Shown here: piece by piece, positions 2,426 through 45,306 of the stretch
How the letters are laid out: every line of letters begins with the position of its first letter
How positions within the stretch are numbered: the stretch's first letter is position 1
DNA from: Marsupella aquatica
Lineage: Eukaryota; Plantae; Marchantiophyta
NCBI GenBank assembly: GCA_973895155.1
Contig: OZ316891.1
Span: forward strand, 2,037,324-2,101,323
Direction of reading: 5' to 3'
Length of the DNA: 64,000 bases
The notes under the pieces: generated by a model
What the model was told of the DNA's origin: nothing
Databases searched by the model: none
The model's input: only the letters and a program-made list of their open reading frames with translations
Program-made: the position numbers and the translations under genes

Positions 2426-2619
2426 ACGTAAATGGCCAACACTAGTGGTTTCACACAAGATGCACATGACAACTGCAAAATAGTTTCAAAATTTGTAGAA
2501 CATCTCTAAATTGTTGGAGTACAATGCTGTTGCAGACTTCAATGTCTGCAACTAAATCAAAATTGCAATTGCTACTTCCTGTGAGCTATTATTTGAACTT
2601 CTTACCACTGTGGTGTAAA

Positions 2620-3309: not shown

Positions 3310-3888
3310 CTAAACTACAAAACCAACACTGCCTTCGTTGAACTTTGCCATTGCCAAATGGCAATCCTATCCTTGGCGCTCTCGTTGTCGCTCTCATGTC
3401 CCTGGTGCTCTTGCTCTCTCTGGCGCTCTTGCTCTCTCTGGCGCTCTCGCTCTCTCTGGCGCTCTCGGGCGCTGCACAATCTACTCAGACCCCTCTCTCT
3501 GGCGCTGCAGTGCTATCCTGTCCGTCCTCTACTACACTGGTCTCCTAAGACCTCCTACCTTTGTTGTCACTCACGTGGACAACTTCAAAGACTCTGCTTT
3601 AGTCCGCTCGCAAAACGCGCACATTCTCCATGGAACACTCAATGTCGACCAACGGTCCCGCACGCCAATATCATTGCGGAAGTAGATTCAAATTTGAAGA
3701 CATTATGGTCAATGTCTTCAATAACAATGAAGGAAGTTAAGAAGACAACATGGTCGCTATCTTCAAGTGCAAGGATGGAAGATAAACGGAAAGACAACAT
3801 GAATATGTTGTATTCATCAGAGAATAATGGTGGAAAAAAGTGACAAGAGTCTGTTTTGATGCACAACCAAAGTTCAGTAAATAAGTAA

Positions 3889-20850: not shown

Positions 20851-21949
20851 GGGAGCCTGGATAGACCTCTAGGTTTGTCGATGACAATTATTTATTTATT
20901 GGGTGAGCCGAAATGGCACTACGGTAAGTCGGTAATGTACTGGAATTTGCAGTATGTTGGTCTTATCATTCTGGGACGCGGATGAGTTAAAGGTTAGTAA
21001 TGAAAGACCCCAACTGGGAAAGCTGCGAACCACCGACAGACGTCCTGCACGCGCAGATCGCGAAGGGGGCGATCTGTATCGCAAGTCGCGACTCGTATTG
21101 CAAAGGGGCATGGGCATCATTCTGTCAGCGCCGGCAGTCGCTAACCGCCCCCCAGTCTCTGACCGGGCTCGACCCTGAGAGGTGAGAAGCTCATCCGTGG
21201 TCAGCACTTCTCTGACTGCGGGTCACCTTATGCCATCCTGTTTCGCGAGCACCTGTGCCAAATAGAAACAAAAGCCAGGATGGCCATCTCCATGGACTGC
21301 GTAAAACTATCATCACTTTTACACTGAAAAGAAAAGATAAATAGGTAGTGGATCGCAGTTGACTACTTTGACTACCTTGGGGAGAAAGTAGTCAAGTTGA
21401 TCGTGAGCAATGGCACAATGTCTTGACGTTTTTCGGGTTCAACATCGTCAAGTCATCAAGTTACCGAGAAAACCTGTTCAATAATTTAATTGAAATCAGT
21501 TGCAAATGGTAATGAGACCATTTATAGGTCACATTTCAGTCAAAAGTGTAGACATTATTATCTGAGCCAGTTTAAATGTTTTGAGCAAGTTCATTCAAGT
21601 TTTTCCAGTCCATTTGGGTTTCATAGACAAAGTGGAAGTCTATCCGGGCTTTAGTTTTGTGCCAAATAACCTATGGCCAGAAGTTTGTTTCTCTTGTTTT
21701 AATTTTTCAAGTTCTAAAACAAGGTTACACTACAGATTATACTATAGTAGTAAGTAGTAAGCTCTTGGCCTTGGAGAGCCCACCCATGTTTACCATTTTT
21801 TTGTTTAGCATCACACACTGGCCTGCACACTCGCATAGAGGTCAAACCCAAGAGCTCTGAGCTCTTGCCACTCTTGATCCAGGTTGTAAAAAAACTAAAA
21901 CCCTAGAAAAAACCCAATTCCCATGAAACATCTTCTGGCACTCTATTTG

Positions 21950-22825
21950 AGCCCCCTTTAAAAGAAGGCAATATATACATGCTTTTGGGAAAGATAGTTG
22001 TTTTTGGACTGGAGTTAGGCTACACCACGATTCCAACTAGGGTCTGATTTCCAGAAACTCCTCTGGTTCTAATAATTGCCCCCAATTGCCCCCAACGTTA
22101 CTCAACTTTCAAGTGGTAAGATCTAGCTCCACCTACTGAGTAAGTTGATAGCTCTTACACTAGAGTGACTCCATTACATTAGTGCCCCTTCTAATAATCA
22201 GAATCTAGATATACGCTTTCTGGAGTTAGGCTATACCACGGTTACAACCAGGATTTGGTTTCCAGAAACGCACTGCTGACAAATCGCCTCGGATCCTGTT
22301 GACATTCAAGTGGTAAATTTGAGTACCACCTATGGGGCAAGTGACAGCAATAAATTACTCTAGACTACATTTCCATTAGATATGAGCCCTCTCTAATAAT
22401 AAGAATCTGAATATATGTTTTGTGTTAACAATAAATGTTTTTGTGCTGGAGTTAGGCTACCACGGTTACAGCCAGCCAGCCAGGTTTGGTTTCCAGAAAC
22501 CCACCTACTACTGATAATCACCCCCAACGTCAGTGTACTTTAAAGTGGTAAACTTGAGTTCCACCTACTAGATAAGTTGATAGCGCTTATAACAGAGTGA
22601 ATCTCCATTGCAGTTGAGCCCCCTCTAAGAATCAGATTCTAAGTATACGCTTTTGGGAAAGATAATTCTTTTTGGACTGGAGTTAAGCTACACCACGGTT
22701 ACAACCTCGATTTGGTTTCCACCTACTTCTGATAATCACCCCCAACGTCAGTGGACGTTAAAGTGGTGCAATTGAGCTCCACCTATAGGGCAAGTTGATG
22801 GCAATACACTAGAATGTATCCCCAC
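21950..22825. repeat. Diverged tandem array, about 210-230-bp unit x4
   Basis: CTGGAGTTA(G/A)GCTA(C/T)ACCACG...GGTTTCCAGAAAC...AAGTGGTAA...CCACCTA at about 22009, 22220, 22446 and 22677. It ends at the presumed left edge of the Gypsy element. Confidence 0.8.
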
Positions 22826-23622
22826 TGTCTCTATTGACAGAATCGACGGCTACAGTAATATATGCATTAATTCCTTTCTCGTTAAAGTGTTGGCTCTTAT
22901 ATTAGTGAGCGAAGTGGACTTTCACCATCATGTTGACCGGTGTTGCCGTGTTGGCCTGGCCCTGGAGGCTGGAGCTCACCTCGTGGTCAGCATTTTCCCC
23001 GACTTCTGAGCTTAACTGCAGTTAAATATAAATATAACTTTTGAACTGCAAAAGTTGCGCTCTAACAGTCCTCTTCATCTTCGTGATTTGAGATCTGCGG
23101 TGCAGATCATAAGATTCCACCTTATAGTTGCTCTTGACGAAAACAAAATACAGTAGGGAAGCAAGCGGAGTTAAGTTCCAGCAGGGTAAAAGTCTACCTA
23201 ATAACTGGGTTGGCTTTATTGAGGTCACCAATAGGGGGTGTAAAATACTTAGCTCCTCGGCCTTGAAGTGGCTTCTGTCTGGTCTTGCATTATATGTATT
23301 TGAGGTCACCTGGCACCCACTGTGGCCCACCATTAAATCTGTGCAAATGGGGTAACACAGGAGGAATGTAGTGAGAATAAAGGCAGGTGAGTTAAGTGTC
23401 ATTTCCTTGTCGTGACATATAGTATCGTAGCCATAGTGTATCAAAAACATACAAGTCACCGGCAATGCATATGTGCAAGCTGCTAGCAACCAACATGCAT
23501 AGAAAAAGTCCAATCACATTCACAGGTGCCAAGAAAAAGCAACTGAGGTGGTATGTACGTAGTGGAGGTGTAAACCTCTATATCCCCCCCAGACCACAGC
23601 CAAAAGGCGGGCTGAAGAAAAA

Positions 23623-25032
23623 TCAGATAGCACGTGGAGCACAGGAAGGGCAAAACCATAACCCTTCTGGCACCTGGGTAAGTTCAGGCCGAAGGCAGAA
23701 AAGATGGTACCCTCCATTGCAATTGTCACACAGCAGCATCTGGTCAGCATCATCAATTCGCAAACACACTTTGCAAGGGTAGTCCACAGGTGGAATCCAA
23801 GTAGAAGTCACAATGGTGGGATCCAGGTTAGGCAGATGACAAGGGGCGCAATTCTTGGCATTGTCAGCAATTGTGCGCCCATCTGCCCCTTGTAACTCTA
23901 GCACTCCAGACGGTCGAATAGCTTTGACCCTGAGAATAGTGCGACTGGTAGAGGTGTCCAGGGTGTCGTTAGCTTGCCGCTGCAAGTACACAAAATCTCC
24001 CACTTCAAACTTCCTGACCTTGGGCTGAAAAGTGCCCCCTCGCGTGTGTGCATAACGCAGTGTGTCCCTGTGCTGTGCAATGGCCAAATTCTCCATGGCC
24101 ATGGGCATAACCCTCCTGAATAGGGCAGCCCTCTCAGAGATCACATCAGACCAAGTCACAGCTGAATCCAAGTCCACCACCTGAAGCATGTGAGAAGCAA
24201 TAGCAGAAGGTGGAACTGGGTGACGACCAAACAACAAGAAGTAGGGAGAAAAGTTAGACAGTGATGCATGTCTGGACATCCTATACCCCATGGCAATGTA
24301 GGGTAAGGCCAGGTCCCAATCCTCCTTGTTTTTGGTGAGGCAGATCTTCCGAAGGCCCTTCTTGCATGTCTGAACCATGCGCTCTGCCAAGCCATCTGCC
24401 TGTGGGTGATCTCGTGATGTCCGGCGATGATCAATGAGAGCCTGATCAAGCAGCTCCTGGAACTCTCCTCTAAACTCTGAGCCCTGGTCAGTGAGACATT
24501 CTGCACAAGCTCCAAAGCGGCTGAGAACTTGTTGCAAGAATGCCTGGCTGGTGCTACGGGAGGTCTTATCCGGCAATGCCACAAGTTCTATCCACTTGGA
24601 GAAATGCTCTATCATGATCATGATGTAGAGATTACCCCGAGATGTGAGGGGTAATTCTCCAGCCAAATCACATGACCAACGATAAAACATGCCCTGAATA
24701 GGGAGTGGATGAAGTGTGGGTTGCCGAGATGTGAAAGAAGTCCTTACCCTATCACACTGCTCACACCGGGCAATAACATCTCGAACCTGGCCATGCATGC
24801 CTCTCCAATGATAATGGGGGACCAAGAGGCTATAAGTCCTCTTAACACCAAAATGACCAAGCTCAGAATGTACCTTACGGATAAGGCCAACCCTCTCATG
24901 AATGGGTGGAACCACCACTTCCCTGTCTGGCAAGCAGCGCACAAGATGATCTCCCTTCCACAAGTAGCGCTTGGACCTTTGCTGAATTCGGTCTCTCTGG
25001 GCAGCAGTAACATGGGTGGGGTACTCCCCATC
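23623..25032 (-). CDS. Pol part 2: integrase (HHCC + DDE core) with C-terminal PHD finger
   Basis: HSELGHFG...CEQC, WSCDLAG, LTDQGSEF and HPQADGLAERMVQT. C-terminal CKVC...LLCDNCNGGYHLFCL...WFCPSC is a C4HC3 PHD. In frame with the upstream pol across the TAG at 25033-25035. Confidence 0.92.
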   Translation of the reverse strand, partial: DGEYPTHVTAAQRDRIQQRSKRYLWKGDHLVRCLPDREVVVPPIHERVGLIRKVHSELGHFGVKRTYSLLVPHYHWRGMHGQVRDVIARCEQCDRVRTSFTSRQPTLHPLPIQGMFYRWSCDLAGELPLTSRGNLYIMIMIEHFSKWIELVALPDKTSRSTSQAFLQQVLSRFGACAECLTDQGSEFRGEFQELLDQALIDHRRTSRDHPQADGLAERMVQTCKKGLRKICLTKNKEDWDLALPYIAMGYRMSRHASLSNFSPYFLLFGRHPVPPSAIASHMLQVVDLDSAVTWSDVISERAALFRRVMPMAMENLAIAQHRDTLRYAHTRGGTFQPKVRKFEVGDFVYLQRQANDTLDTSTSRTILRVKAIRPSGVLELQGADGRTIADNAKNCAPCHLPNLDPTIVTSTWIPPVDYPCKVCLRIDDADQMLLCDNCNGGYHLFCLRPELTQVPEGLWFCPSCAPRAI

Positions 25033-28000
25033 CTACAGAAATCTCAGAGCGTCGCTGTCCTCCCATATGTCCACCACAGGTTGGTCAACAATGTAGCATG
25101 GCAGCAAAGCAAGATAGGTAGATGCATGAAATGTAGGCAAGATGGAAACCTGGTCAAAATCCTGCTGTGCATCTGAGGGATCATCAGAGGCAATCAAAGG
25201 GTTGCGGGACATAGTGTCAGCATTTTGATGTGTCACACCAGGCCTATGAATTACCTCAAAATCATACTCCTGGAGTATGAGTGCCCAACGAGCAAGCTTG
25301 CCAGTAAGCTTGTCGTTGGTCATCAACCACTTCAAGGGCTGGTGGTCGGTGTAGAGAACAAACCTGGTCCCATAGAGGTAGGGCCTGTAATGTATGACAG
25401 CCCACACAACAGCAAGGCATTCACCCTCATAAGAAGAATAATGACTCTCTGCCTGATTGTTGCTCCTGGATGCATAGGCAATGACGTACTCTTTACCTTC
25501 CTCATCATGCTGGCCCAGAATGGCACCAATCCCAAGGGCACTCCAATCTGTGTGTAGCACAAAGACCTTGTTGAAATCAGGTCTTCTCAGCACCGGGTAT
25601 TCTGAGAGCTTCTCCTTCAAAGTGGCAAATGTTGCCTCAGCATCTGTACTCCATGTCCAAGTCACATTCTTTTTCAACAAAGCATACAATGGGTGTGCAA
25701 TGGTACTGAAATCTTTGATGTAGATCCGGTAGTAATTGCACAACCCAATAAAACTCCTCAAAGTGTGAACATCGGTAGGAGTGGGCATTTCCAAGATGGA
25801 TACCACCTTGGCCCAGTGAGCCATGGTTCCATTTGGAAGAATGCGATGCCCAAGATATACTACTGATCTGACAGCAAATTCATACTTCTTGGGGTGTATC
25901 TTTAGGTTCACCTTCTTAAGCCTCATGAATAGCTCCTCAAGGTCAAGTAGATGCTGGTCAAATCCTTTGCTGTGGACCAACACATCATCAATGTAGCATT
26001 TCAAAAACTCAGCACCTTGAAGAACCTGGTCCATGACTCTTTGAAAGAATATGGGCGCATTCTTCAAGCCAAATGGCATCACCAACCACTCCCATAGTTG
26101 GTTACTACCATGGAAAGCTGTTTTCTTGCGGTCCTTTGCAAGCAGCAAAATCTGGTTGAAGCCTTGCCTTAGATCCACAAGAGTGAAGATGTCTGAGTCT
26201 CCAATGCTGTCAAATAGCTCCTCTGGCCGCGGCATGGGGTACCTGTCCTGGGGTGTGACCAGGTTCAATGGCCTGTAGTCCCCACACATGCGCTTCTCTG
26301 TCCACAATCCACTGGAATCCTTCTTTGCTGGCATCACTGTAGCTGCCGCAAAATCTGATGTAGATGGCTGAATAAGACCAGCTTCATAAAGCTCTTGGCA
26401 CCTCTCATCCACCAGCTGCCACTCATGCTTACTCAAACGGTGTCTCCGCCTAAAGATAGGTGTTTCATCAGCCAACTCAATGGAGAACTGCATAGTCTTG
26501 CACTTACCCAAGTCCTTCATAGAGAAAGCAAACACATTCTCATGCTTGAGGAGCAAATTCAGCAGCTGGTCCTTCTGTCTTTTACTCAGGTGGTTGCCCA
26601 TGATAAATGTGTAGTTGGCAACACTAGGAATAGGACCTGATGTACTCATGCTTGAAGAGGCAGAAGTGCCAGCCTCTCCACTGTCCAAGCTGCTAGCATG
26701 CTGCTGATAAGGTGATGAGGCCTCTCCAAGGCCTGCTGTATCTGTTGCTCTGGTCTGATCCACACCATGAAACTCAGAAATAATGTCAGCCACATTACAA
26801 GGAACCTCCTCCCCCCCAACACTTGGACTGAAGCGGTGAGTGTTGAATAGAGGTAAGTGCACCTGGTCTGGATGCCATGTAGCAGCACTGTGGAGGGGTA
26901 GGGCTGGAGCTCCTAATGCTGGAGGAATGTACATCTGAAAAAGGATGCAAGTGACCAGAAGCCAAGTGAGAGCATTGAGATCCATTACCCTGCCAAGTAA
27001 AGCATTCCTGGCCAGCCTGGTGATTTTGGTGTGACCTGTAGTACCGGGTTGGAAGCCCATAGCCCGTTCTCTCTCCTCAGGACTAGGTTCATCCCATGTA
27101 CCGGTAGAATGTCGATAAACCAGCCCAAGACCATCACCCTGAAAAGCATGTGCACCTGGAAAGGACACAAATGTAGGCCAAGCAGCACGGGGTTGTCCAA
27201 TGGTATTAGCTGGATACCAAGGTGCTGGCTCTTGCCGTGTAACTGGTTGGCAAGAACTGTCAGGATCCAAAATCTGGTCCACTGTAAGGTTAGTGTCCCT
27301 GGATGTGTGGTGAAGAGCCATCTCCAGCAAGGAAGGTGGTGCAAGGTTAGTCCAAAAGTTACGAAGACGATGTGCGTAAGAACCACAATGCACTGCATCA
27401 ATGAGAAGGGGTGGTCCCAAGTAGTGCTGGACCACACTGAAATCCTCTTTGACCTGTGGACGCTGGTCAAACTGAGATGGAGTATTCTCAATGATATAAC
27501 CAACAGCAGGATAAAGGGATTGAGCCCAGGTGAGAATCTGAACCAATGCTGTGAAAAGGCCAGAACGAGAATCATGCAGTCCAGCACCGTGACCAGCAGC
27601 TGAAAACCCTTGGCATTCCCAACTAGCTATGATCAAATCAAGGGAGCCAAGAAGGGTTAAGTGCCGGTGCTGGACAAGCTGGATATCTGAAGGAAAGAAA
27701 GAAAATGCAGACTTCCATGCACTGTGTGGAAACTGCTGAGGAAATCGCTCTGAAAATTCCAGCAGACGGGATTCAGCCACTTGCCTTGCACCTGGATCAA
27801 TATCCACATAGATGTACTGCTTCACCACCATGCCAGACTGTAGGAGAGCTTCCAGGCCTGTAGAAATGCCACCAAAAAGCTCAAGCAATGTAAGGTCATC
27901 TGAAGGAGGAGTCCATGTAACTGGTGCGCTCAAGATTGGGGCTATTGGTTGTCCATGATGCTGCCCAAGGTCCTCAAATTTGTGCAATGCAGCCACCAAA

Positions 28001-29553
28001 GGTCCATGGGCTGCTTGGAGCCGTTGTACCACCTCTGGTTGATGATCCACGTTGCTGGAAAGTGCTGCTATACGTGCAGCAGCATGTGCAGTAGCCACCT
28101 CATCATCATCCTCCTCAATCCAATCCTGCAATGGGTGGTTGACATAGGTAGTTGTGTGCACTGCTTTCAACACATAGTGGTGAGCCATAGGGGTATGGGC
28201 ACCATGCAAATCCAGTGGAATGTATCCCAAGTGTGAGCCATCCGTATGCCAATCAACTCTGTAGTATGCATGCTCATGCCAGTTGTCAATGGTAAAACCT
28301 GGTGGGAACAAAGCCTCCTGGCCAATGAGCACATCATACATAGTGGCATTGGTAACCAAACATCTGACTGGGAAATGCAGTTCCTGATCTGTACCTCCAT
28401 TAAAAGTGAGAGTGAGTAAAGTAGAACTCTCACCCAACACATCCTCCACAGTGCCACTAGCAGTCCGAATATGCCACCTGGATGGCTGTAAATGATCAGT
28501 CAGCAGTCCCATCTTCTTGGCAAACTGAATGCCCAAGATTACTGGTTGAGCACCTGTGTCTAGCATGACCACCTGAGGAGTGTGACCCTCCAACTTGACT
28601 GCTGAATTCCTGTTGTCAACAATGGCAATGGTGGTGGAAACTAAAGTCCTGTCACTAGGCACCACTTTTGGCAAATGATGAGGTACCTTGTGAAGGGAGT
28701 TAGTGTCCATGGTCTTCCCACTCAACAGCATAGCCAAGAAAGATGGAGCAGCATGACCAGAATCAAGTGTAGCTCTGGTCACACAATCTGCAGTAATACT
28801 GTCATCTCTACCACTGGAAATCGGTACTGGGATAGCCAAACCAGTGGAAGCATGCAATGGAGAAGAAGAAGGTCCAGTATTAACATGAGATTGGACCTCC
28901 AAAACTGGTGTTACAGGGGCTGATGAAGAATGCAGTGAGCCCTCTAGCGCTCTGATGACAGCTCTAGCATCCAGCTGTAAATCATGGCAACTGAAAAGTG
29001 GAGTGGTAAGAATCCTTTGTGCCATACCGGAGGTGAAATGCTCAAGCAGCTCAGGAAAAATAACTCCCTGTGAAATGTCAGCAGCACCTGGTGGTGGAAT
29101 GGATGTAGCTGCAGCTCCCTCCCCCCTCGCCAACAAGGTGCGCTCTTCAGCAAGTGTGAGTGGCTGAAAAGATTGGGGCATGACAGCCCGAGCTCCCCGG
29201 GCTCTAGTCATAGGACCAGCAGCAAGACCATCAACTTGTACAATGCGGCGTGTGGGAGCAATACGGGAGGCAGCACTGGCCTGCTGGTAAGCAAAATAGG
29301 AAGGGCAGAATGAATTTGAAAATTCTGCTGTAAGGCCAGGCTGTGTAGCAGAGGACAACACACACTCACCCATATGAGCATCAAATGGCAAGCCATAGAA
29401 AGAGCGGGGTAGGGGTGCTGAACTGTCAGTGGTGCCTAGGCCAGGGATGGGTTGCACGTGACCAGCCGGTTGAGAAGGACCAGCAGAGGCAGTGGACTTG
29501 CCTTTGATGTTGGCAAGTTGGGCACGTAATGACTCAACCTCATGAGTTAGAGA
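25033..29553 (-). CDS. pol: Pol part 1: aspartic protease, DNMT3-like C5 cytosine methyltransferase, reverse transcriptase, RNase H
   Basis: Protease VMLDTGAQ (about 28550). MTase motifs at about 26950-27900. RT motifs KRMCGDYRPLN, VDLRQGFNQI, MPFGLKNAP and YIDD. RNase H motifs LHTDWS, YEGECLAVVWAV and LYTDHQPL. Confidence 0.93.
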   Translation of the reverse strand, partial: SLTHEVESLRAQLANIKGKSTASAGPSQPAGHVQPIPGLGTTDSSAPLPRSFYGLPFDAHMGECVLSSATQPGLTAEFSNSFCPSYFAYQQASAASRIAPTRRIVQVDGLAAGPMTRARGARAVMPQSFQPLTLAEERTLLARGEGAAATSIPPPGAADISQGVIFPELLEHFTSGMAQRILTTPLFSCHDLQLDARAVIRALEGSLHSSSAPVTPVLEVQSHVNTGPSSSPLHASTGLAIPVPISSGRDDSITADCVTRATLDSGHAAPSFLAMLLSGKTMDTNSLHKVPHHLPKVVPSDRTLVSTTIAIVDNRNSAVKLEGHTPQVVMLDTGAQPVILGIQFAKKMGLLTDHLQPSRWHIRTASGTVEDVLGESSTLLTLTFNGGTDQELHFPVRCLVTNATMYDVLIGQEALFPPGFTIDNWHEHAYYRVDWHTDGSHLGYIPLDLHGAHTPMAHHYVLKAVHTTTYVNHPLQDWIEEDDDEVATAHAAARIAALSSNVDHQPEVVQRLQAAHGPLVAALHKFEDLGQHHGQPIAPILSAPVTWTPPSDDLTLLELFGGISTGLEALLQSGMVVKQYIYVDIDPGARQVAESRLLEFSERFPQQFPHSAWKSAFSFFPSDIQLVQHRHLTLLGSLDLIIASWECQGFSAAGHGAGLHDSRSGLFTALVQILTWAQSLYPAVGYIIENTPSQFDQRPQVKEDFSVVQHYLGPPLLIDAVHCGSYAHRLRNFWTNLAPPSLLEMALHHTSRDTNLTVDQILDPDSSCQPVTRQEPAPWYPANTIGQPRAAWPTFVSFPGAHAFQGDGLGLVYRHSTGTWDEPSPEERERAMGFQPGTTGHTKITRLARNALLGRVMDLNALTWLLVTCILFQMYIPPALGAPALPLHSAATWHPDQVHLPLFNTHRFSPSVGGEEVPCNVADIISEFHGVDQTRATDTAGLGEASSPYQQHASSLDSGEAGTSASSSMSTSGPIPSVANYTFIMGNHLSKRQKDQLLNLLLKHENVFAFSMKDLGKCKTMQFSIELADETPIFRRRHRLSKHEWQLVDERCQELYEAGLIQPSTSDFAAATVMPAKKDSSGLWTEKRMCGDYRPLNLVTPQDRYPMPRPEELFDSIGDSDIFTLVDLRQGFNQILLLAKDRKKTAFHGSNQLWEWLVMPFGLKNAPIFFQRVMDQVLQGAEFLKCYIDDVLVHSKGFDQHLLDLEELFMRLKKVNLKIHPKKYEFAVRSVVYLGHRILPNGTMAHWAKVVSILEMPTPTDVHTLRSFIGLCNYYRIYIKDFSTIAHPLYALLKKNVTWTWSTDAEATFATLKEKLSEYPVLRRPDFNKVFVLHTDWSALGIGAILGQHDEEGKEYVIAYASRSNNQAESHYSSYEGECLAVVWAVIHYRPYLYGTRFVLYTDHQPLKWLMTNDKLTGKLARWALILQEYDFEVIHRPGVTHQNADTMSRNPLIASDDPSDAQQDFDQVSILPTFHASTYLALLPCYIVDQPVVDIWEDSDALRFL
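26950..27900 (-). other. DNMT3-like C5-methyltransferase domain embedded between protease and RT
   Basis: Motif I LELFGGISTGL, II YVDID, IV DLIIASWECQGFS, VI YIIENT, VIII AHRLRNFWTNL, IX EERERAMGFQPGTT, X RNALLGRVMDL, in non-permuted DNMT3 order. Confidence 0.9.
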
Positions 29554-31011
29554 CTAGAGTTGAGTTGCTTGTGCGTTGTGAGCCTCCTTCTGAGCGGGTT
29601 GCTTCTGTTGCTGCTTGGGCAATTTGTTAGCACTGGATGCTTTGCCACTGGAAGGAGGAGCAACTGATGCAGTAGGAGCCCTCCTAGCTGGTGGGGGAGT
29701 GGAAACAGGAGCAGGATGAGTGGCCTGCTGTCGTAGCTGCTTCCTCTCGGGGAATTTGGCAAAACAAACTGCCTCCAAGTGGCCCACTTTCCCGCAAAAA
29801 TCACAAGACAGGTCCTCAGCAACAATATCACATTCATTAGCCTTGTGATTAGGGTTACCACAGTAGTTGCAAGATGGCAGCATGAAAGCAGCATGTGCGG
29901 GCTTGGTCTTGGAACCATACTGTGGCACACGGGAAGGAGTGGCCAGTGTAGGAGCAGTAGCCTGATACCTGGATCGCGGTGGACGCGCAATACTGGCCTC
30001 ATAATGTGCATGGGCCAACTCAAGTTTCTCAGCAGTGTCATAGACATTGAGCAGGGTGTAGCTATCTCCAAACTCTGAGAATACTTGCTGCAACACTTGC
30101 GAATGGAGAGCTGGGGTGCCCTCCAATGCACGAAGATAGCGGTGAGCAGCTTCCAGGTCAGTGATGCTCTGGGTGTCTTCCTTCAGCTTGAGAAGCCGGC
30201 GATACAACATCTTCAATGTTTCATCGCGCTGCCTCACAAATGTGGCCAACTGCATGATTTTGTCAGCACTCTTGATTGGGAATTCCAATTCAAGAACCTG
30301 GAAAAACTCAGCCACTGGATCAGCAAAGGCAGGGGAATCAATGGTGGGAGAAATGCCTGATGTAGCCTGTGCCAAGACAGTGGGAGTAACTGGTGCAGTA
30401 GTGGGAACTGGAGTAGGAGGGGAAGTGGTAGGAGCAGCAGCATGGGCTGCAATGGCATTCTGTAATGTCAGTTGTGAGGCAGCCGCAATTGCAGTGGCAT
30501 AGGCAGGGTTAGGCAATTGTGTGACAGCAAGCAGCCGTTGAGAATGCTGCTCATACACATCCAAAGCCTCGTGGTGCACATACCTGGCTAGCTGCTTAAA
30601 TGCAAAAGCATTTGTGAAATTGCTGCCATACTTCAACTCCAATTCGTAAATGACAGTGTAGAAAGTGGATTTGAACTCACGCAAAGAGACAGTGCCTGGC
30701 CGCCTGCTGAAGCGCTCAATGCGGCTAGATGAGTGACTGGCATCCATGCTGTATGTCGGTGAAGCTGGAACAATCACTGATGCAGAAGGAGAAAAAGGCA
30801 AAGAAGTGATAGCAGGCTTCGGGGTAGAGGTGAAGCGACCGCCAAATGTAGCAGAAGGGTTGCGTGGTGTGGGTGCTGCTGCTGTCTGCTGACGTCGTCG
30901 AAATTGCCGAGACTCCAATGAAATTGGCACCAACGGTCGTGGATCACTCCGTAAGTGGTACCGGGGTGTCGGTGGCAATGAGCTGCTACCTCCCGGCTCG
31001 TCGGCTGACAT
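29554..31011 (-). CDS. gag: Gag with two CCHC zinc knuckles
   Basis: CNYCGNPNHKANEC and CDFCGKVGHLEAVC knuckles; capsid-like FVRQRDETLKMLYRRL. Same frame as pol, separated by one TAG. Confidence 0.85.
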   Translation of the reverse strand: MSADEPGGSSSLPPTPRYHLRSDPRPLVPISLESRQFRRRQQTAAAPTPRNPSATFGGRFTSTPKPAITSLPFSPSASVIVPASPTYSMDASHSSSRIERFSRRPGTVSLREFKSTFYTVIYELELKYGSNFTNAFAFKQLARYVHHEALDVYEQHSQRLLAVTQLPNPAYATAIAAASQLTLQNAIAAHAAAPTTSPPTPVPTTAPVTPTVLAQATSGISPTIDSPAFADPVAEFFQVLELEFPIKSADKIMQLATFVRQRDETLKMLYRRLLKLKEDTQSITDLEAAHRYLRALEGTPALHSQVLQQVFSEFGDSYTLLNVYDTAEKLELAHAHYEASIARPPRSRYQATAPTLATPSRVPQYGSKTKPAHAAFMLPSCNYCGNPNHKANECDIVAEDLSCDFCGKVGHLEAVCFAKFPERKQLRQQATHPAPVSTPPPARRAPTASVAPPSSGKASSANKLPKQQQKQPAQKEAHNAQATQL

Positions 31012-31514
31012 GCTGCATGCTCACCCGGGGTGCCAATGGGAAAGAAATTGACAAGAAAAAGGAATGGCAGCCCCAAGGCTAGGAAATAAAACCCACAAAG
31101 GAGACAAACGGTACAAGGCAGCAATGTGTAAAATGTGTAAACACACAGAAAAACCGTCACAAAGAAAAATCGTCGGCAAAGGAAAACCCCTTAAAAACTC
31201 GGGAAAGGCTTAATGTTGGCGGCAATAAAGAAATCCGGGAAAAGAAACTAGAAGTGGCCCCCCCCCTTAAGTGTATACATCGGGCCCCTATGTGGACCCA
31301 AAAACTGGCAGGAAAAGGGAAACCAAAGAGGCGCGCGTCAGCGGGAAAAGAAAACCGGGCCAAGTGGGACACAGAATCTGAAGTGTATACACATCAGCCC
31401 GATGTGGACCCGAGAGATGGAGACAGGTCGATCGTCGCGCGGCGAAAAAGTGAGACAAGCCGAAAAAGGCGAAAAGAAAACGGGAAGAGTGAGGCGAAGA
31501 AAAAGAAATGAGCC

Positions 31515-31940
31515 CTGTGCATAGGGCTTCGCACCCCCCTCCTTATGAGCTCCTGAAGAGGTGGGGCTACGAGCTCCCCCTCCCCTCTTAAATGTGCTGG
31601 GTGCCTTGTGCCTGGCAGGACTCCCGAGGGGAGTCGACGTGAACTCCCCCTCTCCCCTTTAATTCTTCATAGGGCCTCGTGCCCACTCCTTGCGCTCTGC
31701 CTCGGCTATGTCTCCCCCTCTTTAATGCTGCTATCTGGGATTCGAGAAGGGAGTCGTATGTACTCCCCCTCCACCTTCAATGCAGCATAGGGGCTCGTGC
31801 CCTATCCTGGCACACTCGCTCCCCTCCCCTCCTTAAATTGCAGCATAGGGCTTCGCGCCCTCTCCTGGCACACTCGCGCTGCCTTGTGCTCGGCTCCCCT
31901 TCCCCCATGCTTTAATTCTCCATAGGGCTTCGTGCCCTCT
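31515..31940. repeat. Sub-repeat array in the retroelement 5' leader
   Basis: CATAGGG(C/G)(C/T)TCG(C/T)(G/A)CCC at about 31520, 31667, 31786, 31843 and 31921, interleaved with CTCCCCCTC/TTAA motifs. Confidence 0.75.
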
Positions 31941-32267
31941 GTCCTCTCGCTTGCTTATGGCAGGGCAAAAAGAAAGGGAGTCGAGGCAGGAAAAACGGGC
32001 GAGAAAATGCCGAAAAAGGGAAGAAACATCCCGGATTGAGGAGGGACTACGGCCGATAAAGGGAGATACAGCCGAGGCAAGGGCATGGTGCCCTATGCAC
32101 GGCCTGTGCAGGGTGTCGTGAGGCAACAAAACGGGCTCAATGGCAGCTGTGGCCGAAAAGTGGCAACAAACACAAAATGGCCCCCAAAAGCAGTCGAGGC
32201 AACGGTTGATGCAACGTCGGCAGCAGCAGGTTGTGGCCGGAATGTGAAACCCGGGTCTCCCAAGGGA

Positions 32268-32303
32268 GTGTTATGTGTATACACTTAAGTATACACATAA
32301 CAC
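32268..32303. other. Perfect 15-bp inverted repeat (hairpin)
   Basis: GTGTTATGTGTATAC-ACTTAA-GTATACACATAACAC. Confidence 0.9.
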
Positions 32304-33584
32304 CACAATAAACCCATAACTTTTAACTCGTCACTCCGATGTCCGTCGAAGAAATTGCAATGGCTTCACCAGAAATTGTCGAAATCGTCACGAGCAATCT
32401 TCTTCCCGTCACCGCTAACTCGACAGTTCTTCTTGAATAAAAGGCGTAAGAGAAACAATCGTACTGAAATCGAATCGAAAACCGGCGGGATGCCAAGATC
32501 GGCCGGGAGCATCTAATGAATCACTGTGTGAATCCCGTGTACGGAACTGACAAGCACTGTCTGAGCTCTGTCAACAGCGATTCAAGAAGAACTGAAGAAC
32601 GGCAAAGAAAAACATGCCCTAAGTAGGACCGGGTCCAGGCGTCACACTAACAAACCCCTTTTGCTTCAAGAACAGCCCAGACTCGCTACAAGAACATGAC
32701 ACTAACTCAAGTAGTACACTAGCCCTAACCATACCTAGCGGGCTTGCGAGGGACATGCCGATGTGCACAAGCGGCACTGTCCCTCGGCATGACATCCTCG
32801 GTATTATTATTTCTGCTAAATGAAAATGCCAGTGCCTCAGTTGGCCCACCTTTTAGAATGCACTGTGTCCATTTGTCCCCCTCCGAGATGGGACCATTCA
32901 TCATTGATGGTTCACTGAGTGCTGTTTGCTGTCACACAATTTAGCCATACTGGAGTAACACAGGCCCATCAGTGCATATCAAAGGTATAATTTGACACCC
33001 CTTAAGCAATATGCCACGTGAGCCATACGCCCCCCCCCCCCGCCGCTGCCGCCAAAAAAAAAAAACATTTAAATGAAAATTGAAAATAGTCCATGAACAC
33101 TGTTGTAGGGGGATGTCTCAGAAGTGCTGCAAGGGGGTAATAGCCAATATGTTTGATGGTGCAAATAGAGTCATGAAACTGTTGAAATCTGGGCGGGAAT
33201 GAAATACAGGGCTAGTAGTGTGTCTCAAAGCTTCATCATTACTGGTGATGGGTTTGTGGCCACAATGAAATGGCCATAACTTTTTTAGCAGGGGTTGTGA
33301 CTTTTATTTATTTTTATTTTCGCTAGCCTACACAGTAACTCACTGACTTATGATCATTCTTTATCACAAGAAGGTTTGCTTATGATTTTGGTAGTTCATA
33401 ATTTTTTCTGTCCATAACCTAGTTAAAATTCATTAAATTTGGAGGTTTGAGATCCCAAAGCCCCCCACCTCACATGTTTGACTAAGCAGACTCAGTATAA
33501 AATCTACACTATTATTTGTCATGAAAGTCTACTGTTCATGAGCCACTGAGTGGAGTGAAACAATGTGCCATAAATTCTCCAGGG

Positions 33585-33960: not shown

Positions 33961-35476
33961 TGGAGAGAAACTTGGTTAATTAGGACTCAGGACTCTGGTT
34001 TGGGAGTCCAGCCATGGTTAGGCACGGGGGGAACGGTTCCATGGCGTGGTCTGCGGTGTGGTGTGGTATGACGAGCTCTTGGGCTGGCTGTGATATGCTG
34101 TGCTGTGCTGTTACTCAATGTACTCTTTCTCTTACTACTCTACAGTACTAACAGAGGTCACTCCTGCCTCTTGATGTTGAGCACTAATAATGTCTTGCTC
34201 GCCAGGAGAGCATTGACCTCTCTCATGTCTCTTACTGCCCGTCAGCTCTTCTCTTCTCTTCTCTTCTCCTCTTCTCTGCTCTCCTCTCCTCTCTCCACTC
34301 CTCATCTCGTTCATTCGCTCCTCTCTCGTTCTCTGTGTCATCTTTTTCTGCTGGGCTGGGGAGCTTGCTGGCTGGCTGGCTGGCTTCTTTTTCTTCCCTC
34401 CTGCTGTGGCTGACTGCCTGCATCCTTGCTCGTTTGCCATTGTTGTTTGCGTTGCTGATTTGGTCCGTGCGGCGGATAGCAGCACCGGCACCAGCAGTAG
34501 CAGCAGCATTCGAGTGGTGGCTCCATTGGAGTGGCAATCGAGCTCCGGCCACGGAATTGAGTTTGTGACAGAGTTTTGGTGGTATGGGTGATTGCTTGAT
34601 TTGTTCGGATTTGATTTTGATCGTTGTCTGGCAGATTGGTCGATGGACGGATGGACGGATGGATGGATAGAGGAAAGGGGAGAGTGTGGGAGGGCTTTGA
34701 GAGGAGATATGGGGGCTAGAAGGAGGGGGAGAGGGGAGAAATAGGAATAGTAGTGTGAGGAGGAGGCGAAGATTGGTGAAGTGAATTTTTCTGGAGGAAT
34801 CGGGGTGGTGGGTTGTGAGATTGTGGGCGCTAGGTGGTGCATCTGCATTTTTCAGAGCTTGTGAGGTGGTCGATCTGGAATGTGTCTTGAAAAGGGATTG
34901 GCGGTGGGGAAAGTAGCCGAAATTTTGGATCAATCTTGGTTTTGGTGGCGAGGGGGGAAGAAGAGGGATCAAGCAGGCCCCATGTTGCCTGGACGAATGT
35001 TAAGTCTGTACGGAGTGTGAGAAGAAAAATCTGCAATTTTGGGGCCTCAGTAGGTGACAATCTGGGGGCTTGGCTGCAATTTGCTTCGGCAATGTAAAGA
35101 AAGGCCTGCTGGACGAGCTGAAAGATCTGGCGGGGGGGTGAGGTGTAGAGCCAGTGGGTGGGTACGTGGATGCAGGGAGGGGATGGGGAGATTTTGAATT
35201 TTTGTTGGAAGAGTAAATCGCCAACGCTGGGATCGATTAAATTTTCCGTGCTCGTCGGAGGAAGGTGAGGTGCAGAAAAAGTCCTCGAGGGACGATGCAG
35301 GAGGAGGAAAAGATCCTCGTGAAACTCTGGAGGGGACGGAGCTGTATGCGCTTTTATTTGGGAATTTCTCAGATGTTTGGCAAGAAGAGTAGATAACGGC
35401 GCTTCTGCTGCTGTTGGAGCAATGAAATAAGCAAAAGCTTGTCATTTTTTAGGAAGTAGTAGAGGAGGGAGAGAGA

Positions 35477-38400
35477 ATGATGGAGTTGACAAATGGTCTG
35501 AGGGAGGGGAGTCCCCTTTGCAGCGGTGATCGTATCTTGCCCCAAATTGGACCCAATCATCAAGTGACCATGCCGCCGCTGAAGCAGAGTGCGCGAATTG
35601 CCTCGCTGGAGTACATCAACAGAGATAAGTGGTATGCATGCGGATTGCCCGTCCCCGTAATCCACATTGCTGCCGCGCCGTCTTGGCGGAAGAGCAGGAG
35701 TTCCGCAGCAGATCAGGACAAAAGCTTAAGTCTTGCTTCCACCTCCAACTCTCGTACTAATGGCTTCCAGCCGCCCGGGTTTGTTCCTCATCAGCAAATT
35801 CCTTGTGCAACAGAGGCGATGGCCAGCAAAGATGCGAATTCTTGTGCTTCTTCCAGCAAAGAAACATGCCAAGCTTGGAAGAAGGAGGAGTCATCCTCTT
35901 TGACTATGATGGACGCATTCCAAGGGGGGCCTCAATCAGCAGAAGAGAAGGCACAGGCAATGGGGGAAGACCACTTGCCAGGGGTGTCCGGTCAATCGGA
36001 GCTGAAATCAAGCATCACGTCGGTGGTGCAAGGAGGAAGTACTGCTGCCATTAAAAAGAGGAAGAAGAGGAGGAGCTGCTGGCAGACCTTGAAGAGGAAA
36101 GGTGGTAACAAAAAAGCTAAACTAGAGAAAGGGAAGATGTACAAGCGGTGGTCCGGGTCTCTGAATAGTGAGGTGGGAGAGGAGGAGGAGCAAGGCTCAG
36201 CAGGAGATGGAGTGGGGCAGGGTAGAGGCAGAGTGCTCCCTGGAGGTCAGCCGGAGTCATGGAGTGAGGAGGAGGTGGCTGGCTTCACTCTTGCCCTTTA
36301 CCTCTTTGACAAAGATTTCTGTGCCATCAAGAGGTTTCTGGAGACCAAGAAGATGAAAGACCTTCTGCACTTTTATTACGGAAAATTTTATGGCACGCCA
36401 GCTTTCTGTAGATGGGCGGGATCCAAGAACAGCCGGAACAGGAAGTTTGTCCACGGCCCTCGCATTCTTCAGGGATGGCGTCAAGATGAATTATTGAGGC
36501 GGCTGCGTCCCCATTTTTCTGATGCCGCCATGGATGTAATCCCCCAGGTGAGCCAGCTCTTGATCCAGCTACTCTGTACGGTCATCCATCGGTTCTCCGT
36601 CAGGGATCCTCGAAAAGCTGATCAGGTCAAATCAATCCACAATCTCCTCAGTAGCAACAAATGGGATGGCTTCTCCTTGACGGACGAGTTTCGCATGGAT
36701 GGAACGAAAATTCTTTGACATGAAAGCTCTCTCTTTGCTTCCCTTTTGTGTTGTTAATTCCGAACTCGCGGTCATGTCGTTGCCCAGAATTGTTGTGCAG
36801 CGCACGAAGAAAGGCTCTTGGGGAGATCTTCTACAGTCCTTTACTAATTTTTTCCAGCGGCTCGAGTTGTGGTTATGGTGTTGCATCCATCTCCGGGCGG
36901 CCGATCCACTCAACTTTCTTCGCTTTGATGATGCTCAATGGAAAATGAACACAAGGGTCTGATTGGGTTTTTCGGTGGGTGGGGCTGTTTGTTGGTTTTC
37001 TTCTTGGCAGGCTGTGAAATCTTTCGAAGAACGGGAGTTGACGGTGGAAGGGTTAGCAACCGAGCTAAGGGCAGCCGCTGGGTTGGATGTCCTCGTACAC
37101 TGCGTCGGCATTGGGGTCCCAAAGCGAGACTTGACGGCCGTGCATGGCGATCCTAACAGGCACGGAAATTATCTTAACCATCTTGGAGGTGGTGGTGGTG
37201 GTGGTGGAGCTGCTCGTGTGGAGAGCACAGCTGGGGCAGCAGGGAAGGCGTGCTCCACCCTGACGAGGGAAGAAATGTTAGAATGTCTCACCGGAGACTT
37301 CAGAATCAGCAAGACTCGTGCACAGGATTTGTTCTGGGAGGCCGTGTGGCCTCGCATGCTGGTCCATGGCTGGCACTCAAAAGAATGTGAGGCACCAGGA
37401 TTCCCGGGATCGAGGAACCCACTTCTATTTCTCCGTCCTGGAGTGACTAAGATCGCCAGGGGATCGTCCGAACGAGGCGTTCACTACTTTGATTCCGTGA
37501 GCGAGGTTTTGAAGGCTGTGGCCAATGATCCGGGCCTTCTGGACGGACTGGGCGATGAATTGACCGGGGATACAATGGAGGGGTCAGAAAATCAGGATGA
37601 TGACGATGAGGAGGAAGTGCAAGAAGAAGGGTGGTCGGATGACATGTTTGAGACTCTGGACATGCACCGATTGAAAGGGCCCAGAGCTGGGAAGATGGTA
37701 GGTGGAGCAGGAGTGAAGAATGCGAAGCCGGCGTACAAGGCCGCGTCTTATTCGTCTCCCTCTGAAGAGCATGCAGCTCAGGACAGCTCCGAGTCCTCTT
37801 CGGTGGACATCGATTTGAATCGGCCGCTGAGTGCTGTGAGCTCAAAACCTCCAGACTTTCCGAAGGACGAAGTGGAGGACGTGGAGTTGCTGCGCTCGTC
37901 AGCTCCCGTCCAGGCGACCGTGAGCCACCGCCATAGGTTTCCCATTGAGGAGATAGACTTGAATCTGCCACCTCTTGATCTTGACTATAATTCCCCCGTT
38001 GGGACAACAGAAGATGATGGGGAGGTGCAGTTGGAGCTCCAGACTGCTTATCCTGTTCCGCATGTCATTTCCAGCTCTCCAATTCCGAACCCATTAGAGA
38101 ATGTGGAGGTCTTGGAGTCCAAGACCTGGGATCTCTGTCCTCCGGTGATGCATACGGTCATGTCGGCTTCGATTGAGATGTGTTCAGGGAGCATAATGGG
38201 AACCATCAATTTGAATGATCCATTGCCTGGAGCAGAAATGATGATTTATGAAGCTGAATTGGATTCCGTAGCACAACCACGTCTAGGAGAGCAGGATGAA
38301 TTTTTGGCAGGTAGTGGTGGATTTCGCAGCATTTGGCATGTAGGTGGGGAGTTGGTGCCGGTTCATAGATTTTCTGGTGACAATGCCGGCGAAAGGCCAC

Positions 38401-44693: not shown

Positions 44694-45306
44694 GGCAGCA
44701 TAGACAACAACACGCCACTCTCCTGGCCATGGACCACTTCTAGGTCTCCATCTCTTCTACTCCCACCCTCATTCCCGAGTGAAGTGAGGGCTCTCCTTAA
44801 CAAAAGTGCTGTCCGTCTGTCCGCAGGGAGAAATCGCAGGGAGGTTCATAATATTTCAGCTGTTTGAGTGATTGCCGTATATTTGTTCAAGTGAACTGCA
44901 GGAGACATCAATTCCTGAAGTTTAGTAAGTCAAATTCAAATATCACTGAATGCTTGACAAGCTGGTGCACAGAATTTTTGTCAAGCCAAGATTTCTGTGC
45001 TGAGCTTTGACAAGATGCTTAAACCAAACGTAGTAGCGAACGAAAACGAGACAGTGTGAGTAGAGCAAAAGATTTCTGCGAGGGAGCTTGAGAAAATGCT
45101 TCGACCTGGTTACGAACGACTTGTACGAGATAGAGCCTTAACCAAAAGAGCTAAGAAGATTGCTGCGCTTCAACAAAATGCTTCAACAAAATGCTACAAC
45201 CTACCACTGCCATCGCGAACGCATTGACGACTCAAACGAACGCTCGACACAAGGCGAGATCACAACTTCAGGCGACGCTCCTGCACCAAAACTAAAGCGA
45301 AACAAA

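What the first reader, a model, noticed from the sequence alone, without database searches (positions are those of the whole stretch)
23623..31011. Gypsy retrotransposon polyprotein carrying its own DNMT3-like cytosine methyltransferase and a PHD histone reader
Seen: one reading frame of about 2460 codons encoding Gag(2xCCHC)-PR-C5 MTase-RT-RH-IN-PHD. The roughly 310-aa insert between protease and RT has motifs I, IV, VI, VIII, IX and X in non-permuted order. By eye they resemble DNMT3 (LELFGGISTGL vs LSLFDGIATGL; AHRLRNFWTNL vs AHRARYFWGNL; RNALLGR vs RQRLLGR). Established: cytosine methyltransferases captured by retrotransposons have been reported in dinoflagellates and charophyte algae, but they are not a standard feature of land-plant LTR elements, and plant DRM enzymes have permuted motifs, unlike this one. 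Inference: a self-contained write-and-read module. The element could methylate its own cDNA in the particle or the new insertion (host mimicry or self-silencing) and pick target chromatin through the PHD.
Basis: partly seen in the sequence, partly recalled or inferred. Interest (0 to 1): 0.95.

Follow-up and report, generated by a model that had tools for sequence, protein, structure and literature searches.

The report
Liverwort retrotransposon with its own methyltransferase
This is a broken copy of an abundant jumping-gene family, in what is likely a leafy liverwort, that encodes a DNMT3-type DNA-methyltransferase domain and a PHD finger and has split terminal repeats, and it likely methylates its own DNA copy and would integrate by cutting a palindrome inside its terminal repeat, a route not described for such elements in the papers I searched.

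Summary
The domains are real, but the frame is on the minus strand and has two stops, so it is not one ORF. The methyltransferase passes Pfam's cut-off, folds like DNMT3A, keeps its catalytic residues in 22 of 22 aligned relatives and is under purifying selection (dN/dS about 0.1). Sequencing contigs carry it at about 100 times flank depth, like the rest of the element, so it is no chimera. The host is likely a leafy liverwort. The closest described element is KnitGypsy-Dnmt3 of Klebsormidium; this scan has noted moss relatives before. There is no LTR pair: the copy reads A-coding-B with TGTC...GACA ends and a 4-bp target duplication. Relatives read A-coding-B-A-B with a palindrome GACAGCTGTC at the B/A join (10 found, 0.38 expected) and a Tf1-like self-priming complement. 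The integrated ends therefore lie inside the repeat that reverse transcription would make, which points to integrase cutting a circular intermediate. Methylase activity, PHD targeting and the circle are inferred, not shown. Verdict: new variant of a known kind.

The parts
23408..32794 (-). Whole insertion, 9387 bp, form A-coding-B; starts TGTC, ends GACA; 4-bp target duplication AGGA on both sides; no LTR pair
   Evidence: no flanking direct repeat; low-depth flank contigs stop at 23433 and 32767; joints at 23408 and 32794; sequence of the ends
32437..32794 (-). Repeat A (358 bp), 5' end of the element; in sister copies it recurs after B
   Evidence: (joints 32794/23408 and 23583/32437)
32580..32594 (-). 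Predicted self-primer and RNA start: 15 nt complementary to 32438-32424
   Evidence: 15 nt; 0 of 40 shuffles reach it, maximum 9; role inferred from Tf1
32424..32438 (-). Predicted primer-binding site directly after A; does not begin with the TGG of a tRNA-type site
30748..32423 (-). Long 5' leader with short degenerate repeats; varies among copies
   Evidence: low depth, many joints
29557..30747 (-). Gag with two CCHC knuckles (29883-29746)
29554..29556 (-). In-frame stop 1; relative P0002 has a residue at this place; state in the family's own copies not determined
28291..28623 (-). Aspartic protease
   Evidence: PF13975, PF13650 above cut-off
26943..27918 (-). DNMT3-like C5 cytosine methyltransferase domain, 325 aa; catalytic Cys codon at 27615, motif VI Glu-Asn at 27489, motif VIII Arg-x-Arg at 27369-27361
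25246..26583 (-). Reverse transcriptase (YIDD) and RNase H; best solved relative is Ty3
25033..25035 (-). In-frame stop 2, private to this copy; sister copies differ here in nearly all laid depth
   Evidence: place 25035: X1 26409 of 26409, X2 54329 of 54615, X3 3078 of 3100, X5 28 of 37
23796..24918 (-). Integrase: H2C2 finger, D,D(35)E core, C-terminal region
23626..23793 (-). PHD finger at the end of integrase, without the aromatic-cage Trp; nearest solved PHDs are CHD4, WSTF, KDM5 PHD1, ATXR5, BAZ2B
23583..23590 (-). Polypurine tract directly before B
   Evidence: same position in L003, L004, L010, L048; role inferred
23408..23582 (-). Repeat B (175 bp), ends GACA; in sister copies followed by GC and repeat A

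Best explanation
This is a broken copy of a high-copy Gypsy-type retrotransposon family whose polyprotein holds a conserved DNMT3-like methyltransferase domain and ends in a PHD finger, and the family likely methylates its own cDNA inside the particle, would steer integrase to nucleosomes with unmethylated H3K4, and likely integrates after integrase cuts a palindrome inside the terminal repeat. Steps: (1, inferred) RNA starts inside A and primes itself on the site just after A, as Tf1 does. (2, inferred) Reverse transcription between the purine tract and that site gives a terminal repeat B-GC-A, whose own ends are not the integration ends. (3, inferred) The co-packaged methyltransferase, released by the protease, methylates the new double-stranded DNA, most likely at CG, so that it arrives pre-marked. 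(4, anatomy shown, chemistry inferred) Integrase cuts after CA on both strands of GACA-GC-TGTC, which leaves the usual recessed CA ends with 2-nt overhangs. Cutting a two-repeat circle at the upstream site gives A-coding-B-A-B, the form that can be copied again. Cutting a one-repeat circle, or both sites of a linear cDNA, gives A-coding-B, the dead-end form in this window. Separate odds: identity of the element 0.95; domain catalytically active in the family 0.75; cDNA is its main target 0.5; ends made by cutting the internal palindrome 0.7; circle as the intermediate of the full form 0.5.
For: Methyltransferase: profile vs DNMT3A E 4e-25, DRM 3e-13, M.HhaI 2e-9; model pLDDT 93.8, all 35 listed Foldseek hits are DNMT3 entries, TM 0.66-0.74 over the query; Cys, Glu-Asn and Arg-x-Arg invariant in 22 of 22 aligned domains; dN/dS 0.098 window vs L001 and 0.129 for L002 vs L003 at dS 0.25. 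Family: in run X3 five listed coding contigs, one inside the methyltransferase, have depth 1207-1686 against 10 and 16 for the flanks. Ends: TGTC...GACA with 4-bp duplications in the window and in L048. L048 reads A-coding-tract-B-GC-A-B. GACAGCTGTC occurs 10 times in L001-L060 (0.38 expected) and 0 times in L061-L080, always downstream of the PHD; the window's own family has the same B-GC-A joint in reads (depth 2450 in X1, 596 in X3). 7 of 7 distinct 5' ends in the L048 family begin at TGTC with unrelated flanks and no B before them. Self-priming complements of 15, 17 and 16 nt in three families, 0 of 40 shuffles each. The A-to-B join differs between two copies of one family, L045 keeping 9 nt of the primer site plus filler, as expected of joined cDNA ends. 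Precedent: foamy-virus integrase cuts the palindromic junction of 2-LTR circles (PMC1180852, abstract). PHD: Gly, not Trp, at the cage position in 75 of 82 PHDs matched; that its nearest solved relatives bind unmethylated H3K4 is recalled knowledge.
Against: No activity was measured; the Klebsormidium domain gave no methylation in yeast. Motif IV reads Glu-Cys rather than Pro-Cys in 11 of 22 aligned domains, and this copy also departs from the family's near-invariant Gly just before it. CpG depletion of the coding region (o/e 0.25) equals that of a Copia fragment in the same window (0.25), so it does not point to self-methylation. A circle cut at either of two equal sites should also give the mirror form A-B-A-coding-B; 0 of 7 5' ends show it. 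Only one locus (L048) shows the complete A-coding-B-A-B with both flanks, and only two A-to-B joins were read in full. Folding the predicted 5' RNA did not give the primer duplex (z -1.35). The self-priming complement is weak or absent (7-12 nt) in 7 of 7 tested loci of the other architecture. 15 of 26 loci with a mapped PHD lack the palindrome downstream; at least two of these end at B and many are short. Read depth of contigs is not a copy number, and one run may be the window's own source.
Confidence: 0.55

Rival explanations
1. The methyltransferase acts after integration or in trans, on the new insertion, on sister copies or on host chromatin (self-silencing or copy-number control), and not mainly on cDNA in the particle.
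For: Offered as an alternative in PMC5890265 (section 11). In a sister clade the enzyme ends a Gag-PR-MTase product with a stop before RT, so it could be made in excess of what cDNA needs.
Against: Fusion to Gag or Pol would bring it into the particle (established knowledge of Gag-Pol packaging); it has no reader domain of its own, the PHD being on integrase; two different positions inside Pol are both conserved.
Confidence: 0.25
2. The split repeats are copied by template switches as in PAT/Ngaro-type elements, so that a linear cDNA with ordinary ends forms without a circle, and A-coding-B copies such as this one arise later by recombination between the two B repeats on the chromosome.
For: The repeat order equals that of split-repeat DIRS elements (PMC5890265, Fig. 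4 legend). No mirror form in 7 of 7 5' ends. B-by-B recombination would keep both ends and the target duplication, as seen.
Against: B-ended copies are common (window, L028, L019 against L010, L048), and the B-GC-A joint has only about 35-50% of coding-contig depth in X3 (596 vs 1207-1686), much for rare recombination in 110-175 bp. The A-to-B join varies while the B-to-A join is conserved across distant families. A 2-nt spacer in a perfect palindrome matches integrase's staggered cut.
Confidence: 0.3
3. The domain is kept for a non-catalytic job, such as binding DNA or RNA or spacing the polyprotein.
For: No activity of the Klebsormidium domain in yeast; Pro-Cys of motif IV often reads Glu-Cys; dN/dS is higher than for RT (0.129 vs 0.039 in L003 vs L004).
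Against: Catalytic Cys, Glu-Asn and Arg-x-Arg are invariant at 35-46% overall identity; simple patterns for them match 180, 197 and 199 of 213 proteins, partial ones included.
Confidence: 0.15
4. One-off capture of a host DNMT3 piece, or an assembly chimera.
For: No single laid contig spans the whole element; no genome is held.
Against: Same order in one frame in independent proteins and loci (P0004, P0020, P0037, L003); methyltransferase at family depth in 4 runs of 3 studies; 570 clusters at E up to 1e-30, 105 of the best 150 with another retroelement domain.
Confidence: 0.01

Closest known systems
KnitGypsy-Dnmt3 of Klebsormidium nitens (de Mendoza et al. 2018, PMC5890265; abstract, sections 9-11, passages and two supplement passages read; figures not held)
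   Same: Gypsy domain set; intronless, non-permuted Dnmt3-like domain inside Pol; purifying selection below 0.2; repeats arranged as in DIRS elements (A-coding-B-A-B).
   Different: Host here is likely a land plant. The text I read has 0 occurrences of 'PHD' and sections 9-11 give no termini, target duplication, palindrome, self-priming or replication model. The domain order is only in Fig. 4c, which I could not see. No K. nitens sequence came back, so common descent is untested.
SymbioDIRS-Dnmt3 (same paper) and split-repeat DIRS/PAT/Ngaro elements
   Same: Dnmt3 domain in Pol (active on CG in yeast for SymbioDIRS); split repeats; a circle opened at a repeat junction (recalled).
   Different: They use a tyrosine recombinase; this element has a DDE integrase, a 4-bp target duplication and a purine tract.
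Tf1/sushi and Tcn1 self-priming Gypsy elements (PMC6317226 and PMC4600332, passages)
   Same: Site after the 5' repeat is complementary to a stretch inside it; no tRNA site; histone reader at the end of integrase.
   Different: They have two whole LTRs and, in chromoviruses, a chromodomain; here a PHD, a methyltransferase and split repeats. The REXdb paper has 0 occurrences of 'PHD' or 'methyltransferase'.
EpiLTRs and DAM-LTRs (bioRxiv 10.64898/2026.05.21.726589; passages; supplements closed)
   Same: LTR elements that join DNA methyltransferases with a chromatin reader; the preprint names 'streptophytes (Gypsy-DNMT3)' as known.
   Different: Those have adenine methylases, a DNMT4-sister domain and a chromodomain. 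The writer-plus-reader idea is thus in print, though not with DNMT3 plus PHD in the passages I read.
Foamy-virus integrase on 2-LTR circles (PMC1180852, abstract and outline)
   Same: Integrase cuts a palindromic repeat junction to make processed ends.
   Different: There the palindrome forms when the natural cDNA ends join; here it is genome-encoded inside the repeat, and the natural ends form a separate, variable join.

Membership tests
DNMT3-type C5 cytosine methyltransferase | C5-MTase profile and fold, DNMT3 nearest | tested here: met
DNMT3-type C5 cytosine methyltransferase | Motifs I to X in non-permuted order with catalytic Cys, Glu-Asn, Arg-x-Arg | tested here: met
   Pro of motif IV is Glu here and in 11 of 22
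DNMT3-type C5 cytosine methyltransferase | Branches with DNMT3 in a tree with labelled DNMT3, DRM, DNMT1 and bacterial enzymes | not tested
   no labelled full sequences in hand; only score ranking
DNMT3-type C5 cytosine methyltransferase | De novo methylation activity | not testable with these tools
   bench assay needed
Ty3/Gypsy LTR retrotransposon | Order PR-RT-RH-IN and Ty3-type RT | tested here: met
   (Ty3 RT E 4e-65, caulimovirus-type next at 6e-49)
Ty3/Gypsy LTR retrotransposon | DDE integrase, TG...CA ends, 4-6 bp target duplication, purine tract | tested here: met
Ty3/Gypsy LTR retrotransposon | Two whole direct LTRs flanking the coding region | tested here: not met
   repeats are split; it works like a Gypsy element by its enzymes but is not a canonical LTR element
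KnitGypsy-Dnmt3 kind | Non-permuted intronless Dnmt3 domain in the Pol frame of a Gypsy element | tested here: met
KnitGypsy-Dnmt3 kind | Repeats A-coding-B-A-B | tested here: met
   met for the lineage (L048; both joins in the family's reads); this copy has only A-coding-B
KnitGypsy-Dnmt3 kind | Purifying selection on the domain | tested here: met
KnitGypsy-Dnmt3 kind | Same clade and domain order as the K. nitens element | not testable with these tools
   no K. nitens sequence returned; figure not held
DIRS/PAT/Ngaro tyrosine-recombinase elements | Tyrosine recombinase in place of integrase | tested here: not met
   rve integrase; no recombinase family hit in the element's three ORFs
Tf1/sushi/Tcn1 chromoviruses | Self-priming complement of 10 nt or more at the end of the 5' repeat | tested here: met
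   criterion from PMC6317226 methods passage; RNA fold did not show it
Tf1/sushi/Tcn1 chromoviruses | Chromodomain on integrase | tested here: not met
   PHD, no chromodomain
Tf1/sushi/Tcn1 chromoviruses | RT branches inside the clade | not tested
   no reference RTs in the tree

The most novel reading that the evidence does not exclude
An old green-plant lineage of Gypsy elements has left the textbook LTR cycle: it self-primes, carries its integration site as a palindrome inside the terminal repeat, passes through a circle that a DDE integrase opens, methylates that DNA with its own DNMT3 and docks by a PHD on H3K4-unmethylated chromatin, so rebuilding in a mobile element the enzyme-plus-reader pair of animal DNMT3; the methyl marks might also decide which of the two palindromes is cut.
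Probability: 0.35. Interest if true: 0.85.

Novelty: new variant of a known kind. Interest (0 to 1): 0.62.

Why it matters
It extends DNMT3-carrying Gypsy elements from one alga to abundant families in bryophytes, with named relatives in Marchantia, Closterium and Haematococcus. That makes the open question of what these enzymes do testable in a model plant, and suggests that four Marchantia gene models are pieces of such elements. The termini give a concrete, testable explanation of the 'DIRS-like' repeats noted in 2018: integration from an internal palindrome, probably through a circle, which for LTR elements is usually treated as a dead end. LTR-pair finders would miss these elements.

Tried and rejected
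No genome is held, so no copy census. IMG/VR scan: no relative. No RNA holder listed: no evidence on expression either way. Whether stop 1 is shared by the family's copies stays open; its context does not match the read-through context of the sister clade, and P0002 (772 of 1190 aligned residues identical) has a residue there. RNA folding of the predicted 5' end: not significant, duplex not formed. CpG depletion as a sign of self-methylation: rejected, a Copia fragment is as depleted. dN/dS among decayed copies of the L048 family is 0.36-1.10 (14 of 28 possible pairs computed) and L022 vs L027 is uninformative. Trees (FastTree, midpoint root, 95 MT-after-RH rows thinned to the first 30 plus named ones, no methylase-free outgroup): 12 of 12 MT-before-RT elements form one RT clade (support 1.00), but in the methyltransferase tree the window's clade does not group with them under that root and P0210 falls among the other type, so no order of events is claimed. 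Literature searches without a description of the palindrome, self-priming or land-plant members: (open-access library only; Repbase, theses and most subscription journals not covered). Search of earlier scan notes by sequence: nothing. No complex prediction was run.
Full report
Observation. The plus strand of 23623-31011 is closed. The minus strand gives one reading phase from 31020 to 23623 with two TAG stops, at 29556 and 25035, and so three ORFs of 488, 1506 and 469 codons. Pfam finds protease, DNA_methylase (24.8 bits, cut-off 22), RVT_1, RNase H, the integrase finger and core, and PHD above cut-off; zf-CCHC is just below. The domain list is right; 'one reading frame' is not.

The methyltransferase. 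The single sequence hits DNMT3A best among solved structures (E 5e-5). A profile of 22 domains hits DNMT3A at 4e-25, DRM at 3e-13 and M.HhaI at 2e-9, with three colinear segments that include the C-terminal motifs. The AlphaFold model has pLDDT 93.8, and all 35 listed Foldseek rows are DNMT3 entries. Catalytic Cys, Glu-Asn and Arg-x-Arg are invariant in 22 of 22; the Pro before the Cys is Glu in 11, Pro in 10 and Ser in 1. Nei-Gojobori dN/dS is 0.098 against L001 (dS 1.8, near saturation), 0.129 for L002 vs L003 (dS 0.25) and 0.07-0.13 for four other between-family pairs; window vs L003 gives 0.29, RT in L003 vs L004 gives 0.039, and decayed copies of one family give 0.36-1.10. Activity was not tested. 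In PMC5890265 (section 10) the dinoflagellate DIRS domains methylated CG in yeast and the Klebsormidium domain did not, which the authors call inconclusive.

Not a one-off. Of 47 proteins found among 3184 candidates, 6 have the methyltransferase before RT, 17 end in or after it behind Gag and protease, and 24 carry it between RNase H and integrase or directly before integrase. A profile search gives 570 clusters at E up to 1e-30; of the best 150, 105 show another retroelement domain. Named relatives are four Marchantia polymorpha gene models, Closterium and Haematococcus. Four runs from three studies cover the whole coding region. In X3, five listed coding contigs, one inside the methyltransferase, have depth 1207-1686 with 1-6 differences, against 10 and 16 in the flanks, which suggests on the order of 100 near-identical copies; the tool warns that depth is not copy number and one run may be the window's source. 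Stop 2 is private to this copy. The state of stop 1 in the family is open.

Host. The CDC45 gene at 44693-42882 is 88% identical to that of Calypogeia fissa and 59% to Marchantia, so the host is likely a leafy liverwort (inference).

Ends of the element. No direct repeat flanks the coding region. Flank contigs and joints put the ends at 32794 and 23408. On the minus strand the element begins TGTC and ends GACA, between two copies of AGGA. A G-rich tract lies directly before the last 175 bp (B). Reads hold two joints absent from this copy: B, then GC, then the first 358 bp (A) (depth 2450 in X1, 596 in X3), and A then B (listed in X1, X2, X3, with two further variants); 85 joint rows were not shown. 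Locus L048 shows the whole form, A-coding-tract-B-GACAGCTGTC-A-B, between two copies of AAGG. The 10-mer occurs 10 times in 438 kb of L001-L060 (0.38 expected) and 0 times in 119 kb of weak-hit loci; with one variant, 11 of 26 loci with a mapped PHD have it downstream, in both domain orders. Eight loci hold the 5' end of the L048 family; they are 7 distinct insertions, all starting at TGTC with no B before. L028 and L019 end at B like the window copy; their 5' ends are not held. The 15-17 nt after A are complementary to a stretch inside A in the window, L048 and L003 (0 of 40 shuffles each, maximum 9-10). This meets the criterion for self-priming used in PMC6317226 (passage) and matches Tf1 and Tj1 (PMC4600332, passages). 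Against it, the folded RNA did not show the duplex, and 7 of 7 loci of the other domain order gave only 7-12 nt.

How it most likely works. By established retroelement logic the repeat made by reverse transcription starts after the purine tract and ends before the primer site; here that is B-GC-A. The integrated ends are instead the two halves of the palindrome in its middle. A cut after CA on each strand of CA-GC-TG leaves recessed CA ends with 2-nt overhangs, the normal integrase substrate, and foamy-virus integrase is reported to cut a palindromic circle junction (PMC1180852, abstract). To place B behind the second A, the natural cDNA ends must be joined, most simply in a two-repeat circle. 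The join differs between L048 and L045, the latter keeping 9 nt of primer site plus filler. A one-repeat circle or a doubly cut linear DNA gives A-coding-B, which lacks the terminal redundancy needed for another round. The weak points are the missing mirror form (0 of 7), the few joins read, and the alternative of later B-by-B recombination. For the enzyme I commit to methylation of the cDNA in the particle, the proposal of de Mendoza et al. (section 11). One new pointer fits: in the sister clade a stop lies between methyltransferase and RT at a matching place in 8 of 8 loci examined plus L003, always followed by CAA or CAG, in L002, L003 and L004 in the full context that I recall as the plant-virus read-through signal. 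There the enzyme would be made with Gag, in particle-forming amounts. The window's frame has no stop at that place. The PHD lacks the cage Trp (Gly in 75 of 82) and is nearest to CHD4, WSTF, KDM5 PHD1, ATXR5 and BAZ2B, recalled as readers of unmethylated H3K4; it would steer integrase, not the methyltransferase. CpG depletion gives no extra support.

Comparison and novelty. KnitGypsy-Dnmt3 is described with a non-permuted Dnmt3 in Pol, Ka/Ks below 0.2 and DIRS-like repeats (PMC5890265 section 9), so the kind is known; a 2025 paper and a 2026 preprint refer to it as present in streptophytes (PMC12344493 and 10.64898/2026.05.21.726589, passages), and PHD fusions to retrotransposons are known in general (10.1101/2021.11.30.470311, passages). 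I could not see Fig. 4c or the preprints' supplements, which may show the PHD, the domain order or land-plant members. Eight searches returned no description of land-plant members, of the palindrome or of self-priming in these elements. This scan has noted moss relatives before (e1-7304403, which also mentions split repeats; e1-7226111; e1-7364918); these are unchecked notes and I tested the claims only on my own data. In the RT tree 12 of 12 elements with the enzyme before RT, the window and Closterium among them, form one clade; rooting and outgroups are weak.

Verdict. Observation partly confirmed, interpretation partly supported. A dead copy of a real, abundant and selected family; a new variant of a known kind. 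The terminal anatomy and the replication route it implies are the most surprising part. Interest 0.62.

Noticed in passing
L002:2081, L003:5083, L004:4661, L010:11219, L013:4430, L015:4245, L028:3631, L033:1345, L034:11222: Conserved in-frame stop between methyltransferase and RT, followed by CAA or CAG, in the sister clade; likely programmed read-through, making Gag-PR-MTase the main product.
   Followed up: partly
proteins P0014, P0022, P0026, P0035: Marchantia gene models Mp_4g09160, MARPO_0063s0090, MARPO_0204s0011 and MARPO_0020s0163 are Gag-PR-MTase products ending 82-84 residues after the domain; probably parts of such elements, not host genes. A search for these ids, three in their Mapoly form, found no paper.
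   Followed up: partly
L005-L046 (many) and 24 of 47 proteins: A larger radiation carries the same methyltransferase between RNase H and integrase, also with PHD and the same palindrome (7 loci); the domain has moved within Pol at least once.
   Followed up: partly
L045:5538-5819: Partial A joined to B with 9 nt of primer site and filler between, next to an inversion.
   Followed up: partly
window 21945-22806: Degenerate repeats of about 218 bp, 600 bp downstream of the element's 3' end; not identified.
   Followed up: no
window 58613-61168: Direct repeats of 323 bp, 97% alike, around 1.9 kb with an RVT_2 fragment: a deleted Copia-type element.
   Followed up: no
window 1629-6081: Six 114-bp tandem repeats, an RNase H1 N-terminal (Cauli_VI) domain at 3309-2623 and a MULE transposase fragment at 6081-5572: likely a Mutator-like remnant.
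   Followed up: no
window 35453-44756: Host genes: DUF7952 ORF and DUF7650 ORF on the plus strand, and a CDC45 gene in one uninterrupted ORF on the minus strand; the element sits about 2.7 kb from the first.
   Followed up: partly
L025:1-10057, L027:1-1648, L042:9398-9601, L022:9855-9909: 100% identical duplications, probably assembly artefacts of collapsed repeats.
   Followed up: no
window 23414-23408 and the 11 junctions: A CG lies directly before or overlapping the GACA end in the window and in 9 of 11 junctions, although the window's coding region is CpG-poor; a possible methylation-sensitive site for integrase.
   Followed up: no
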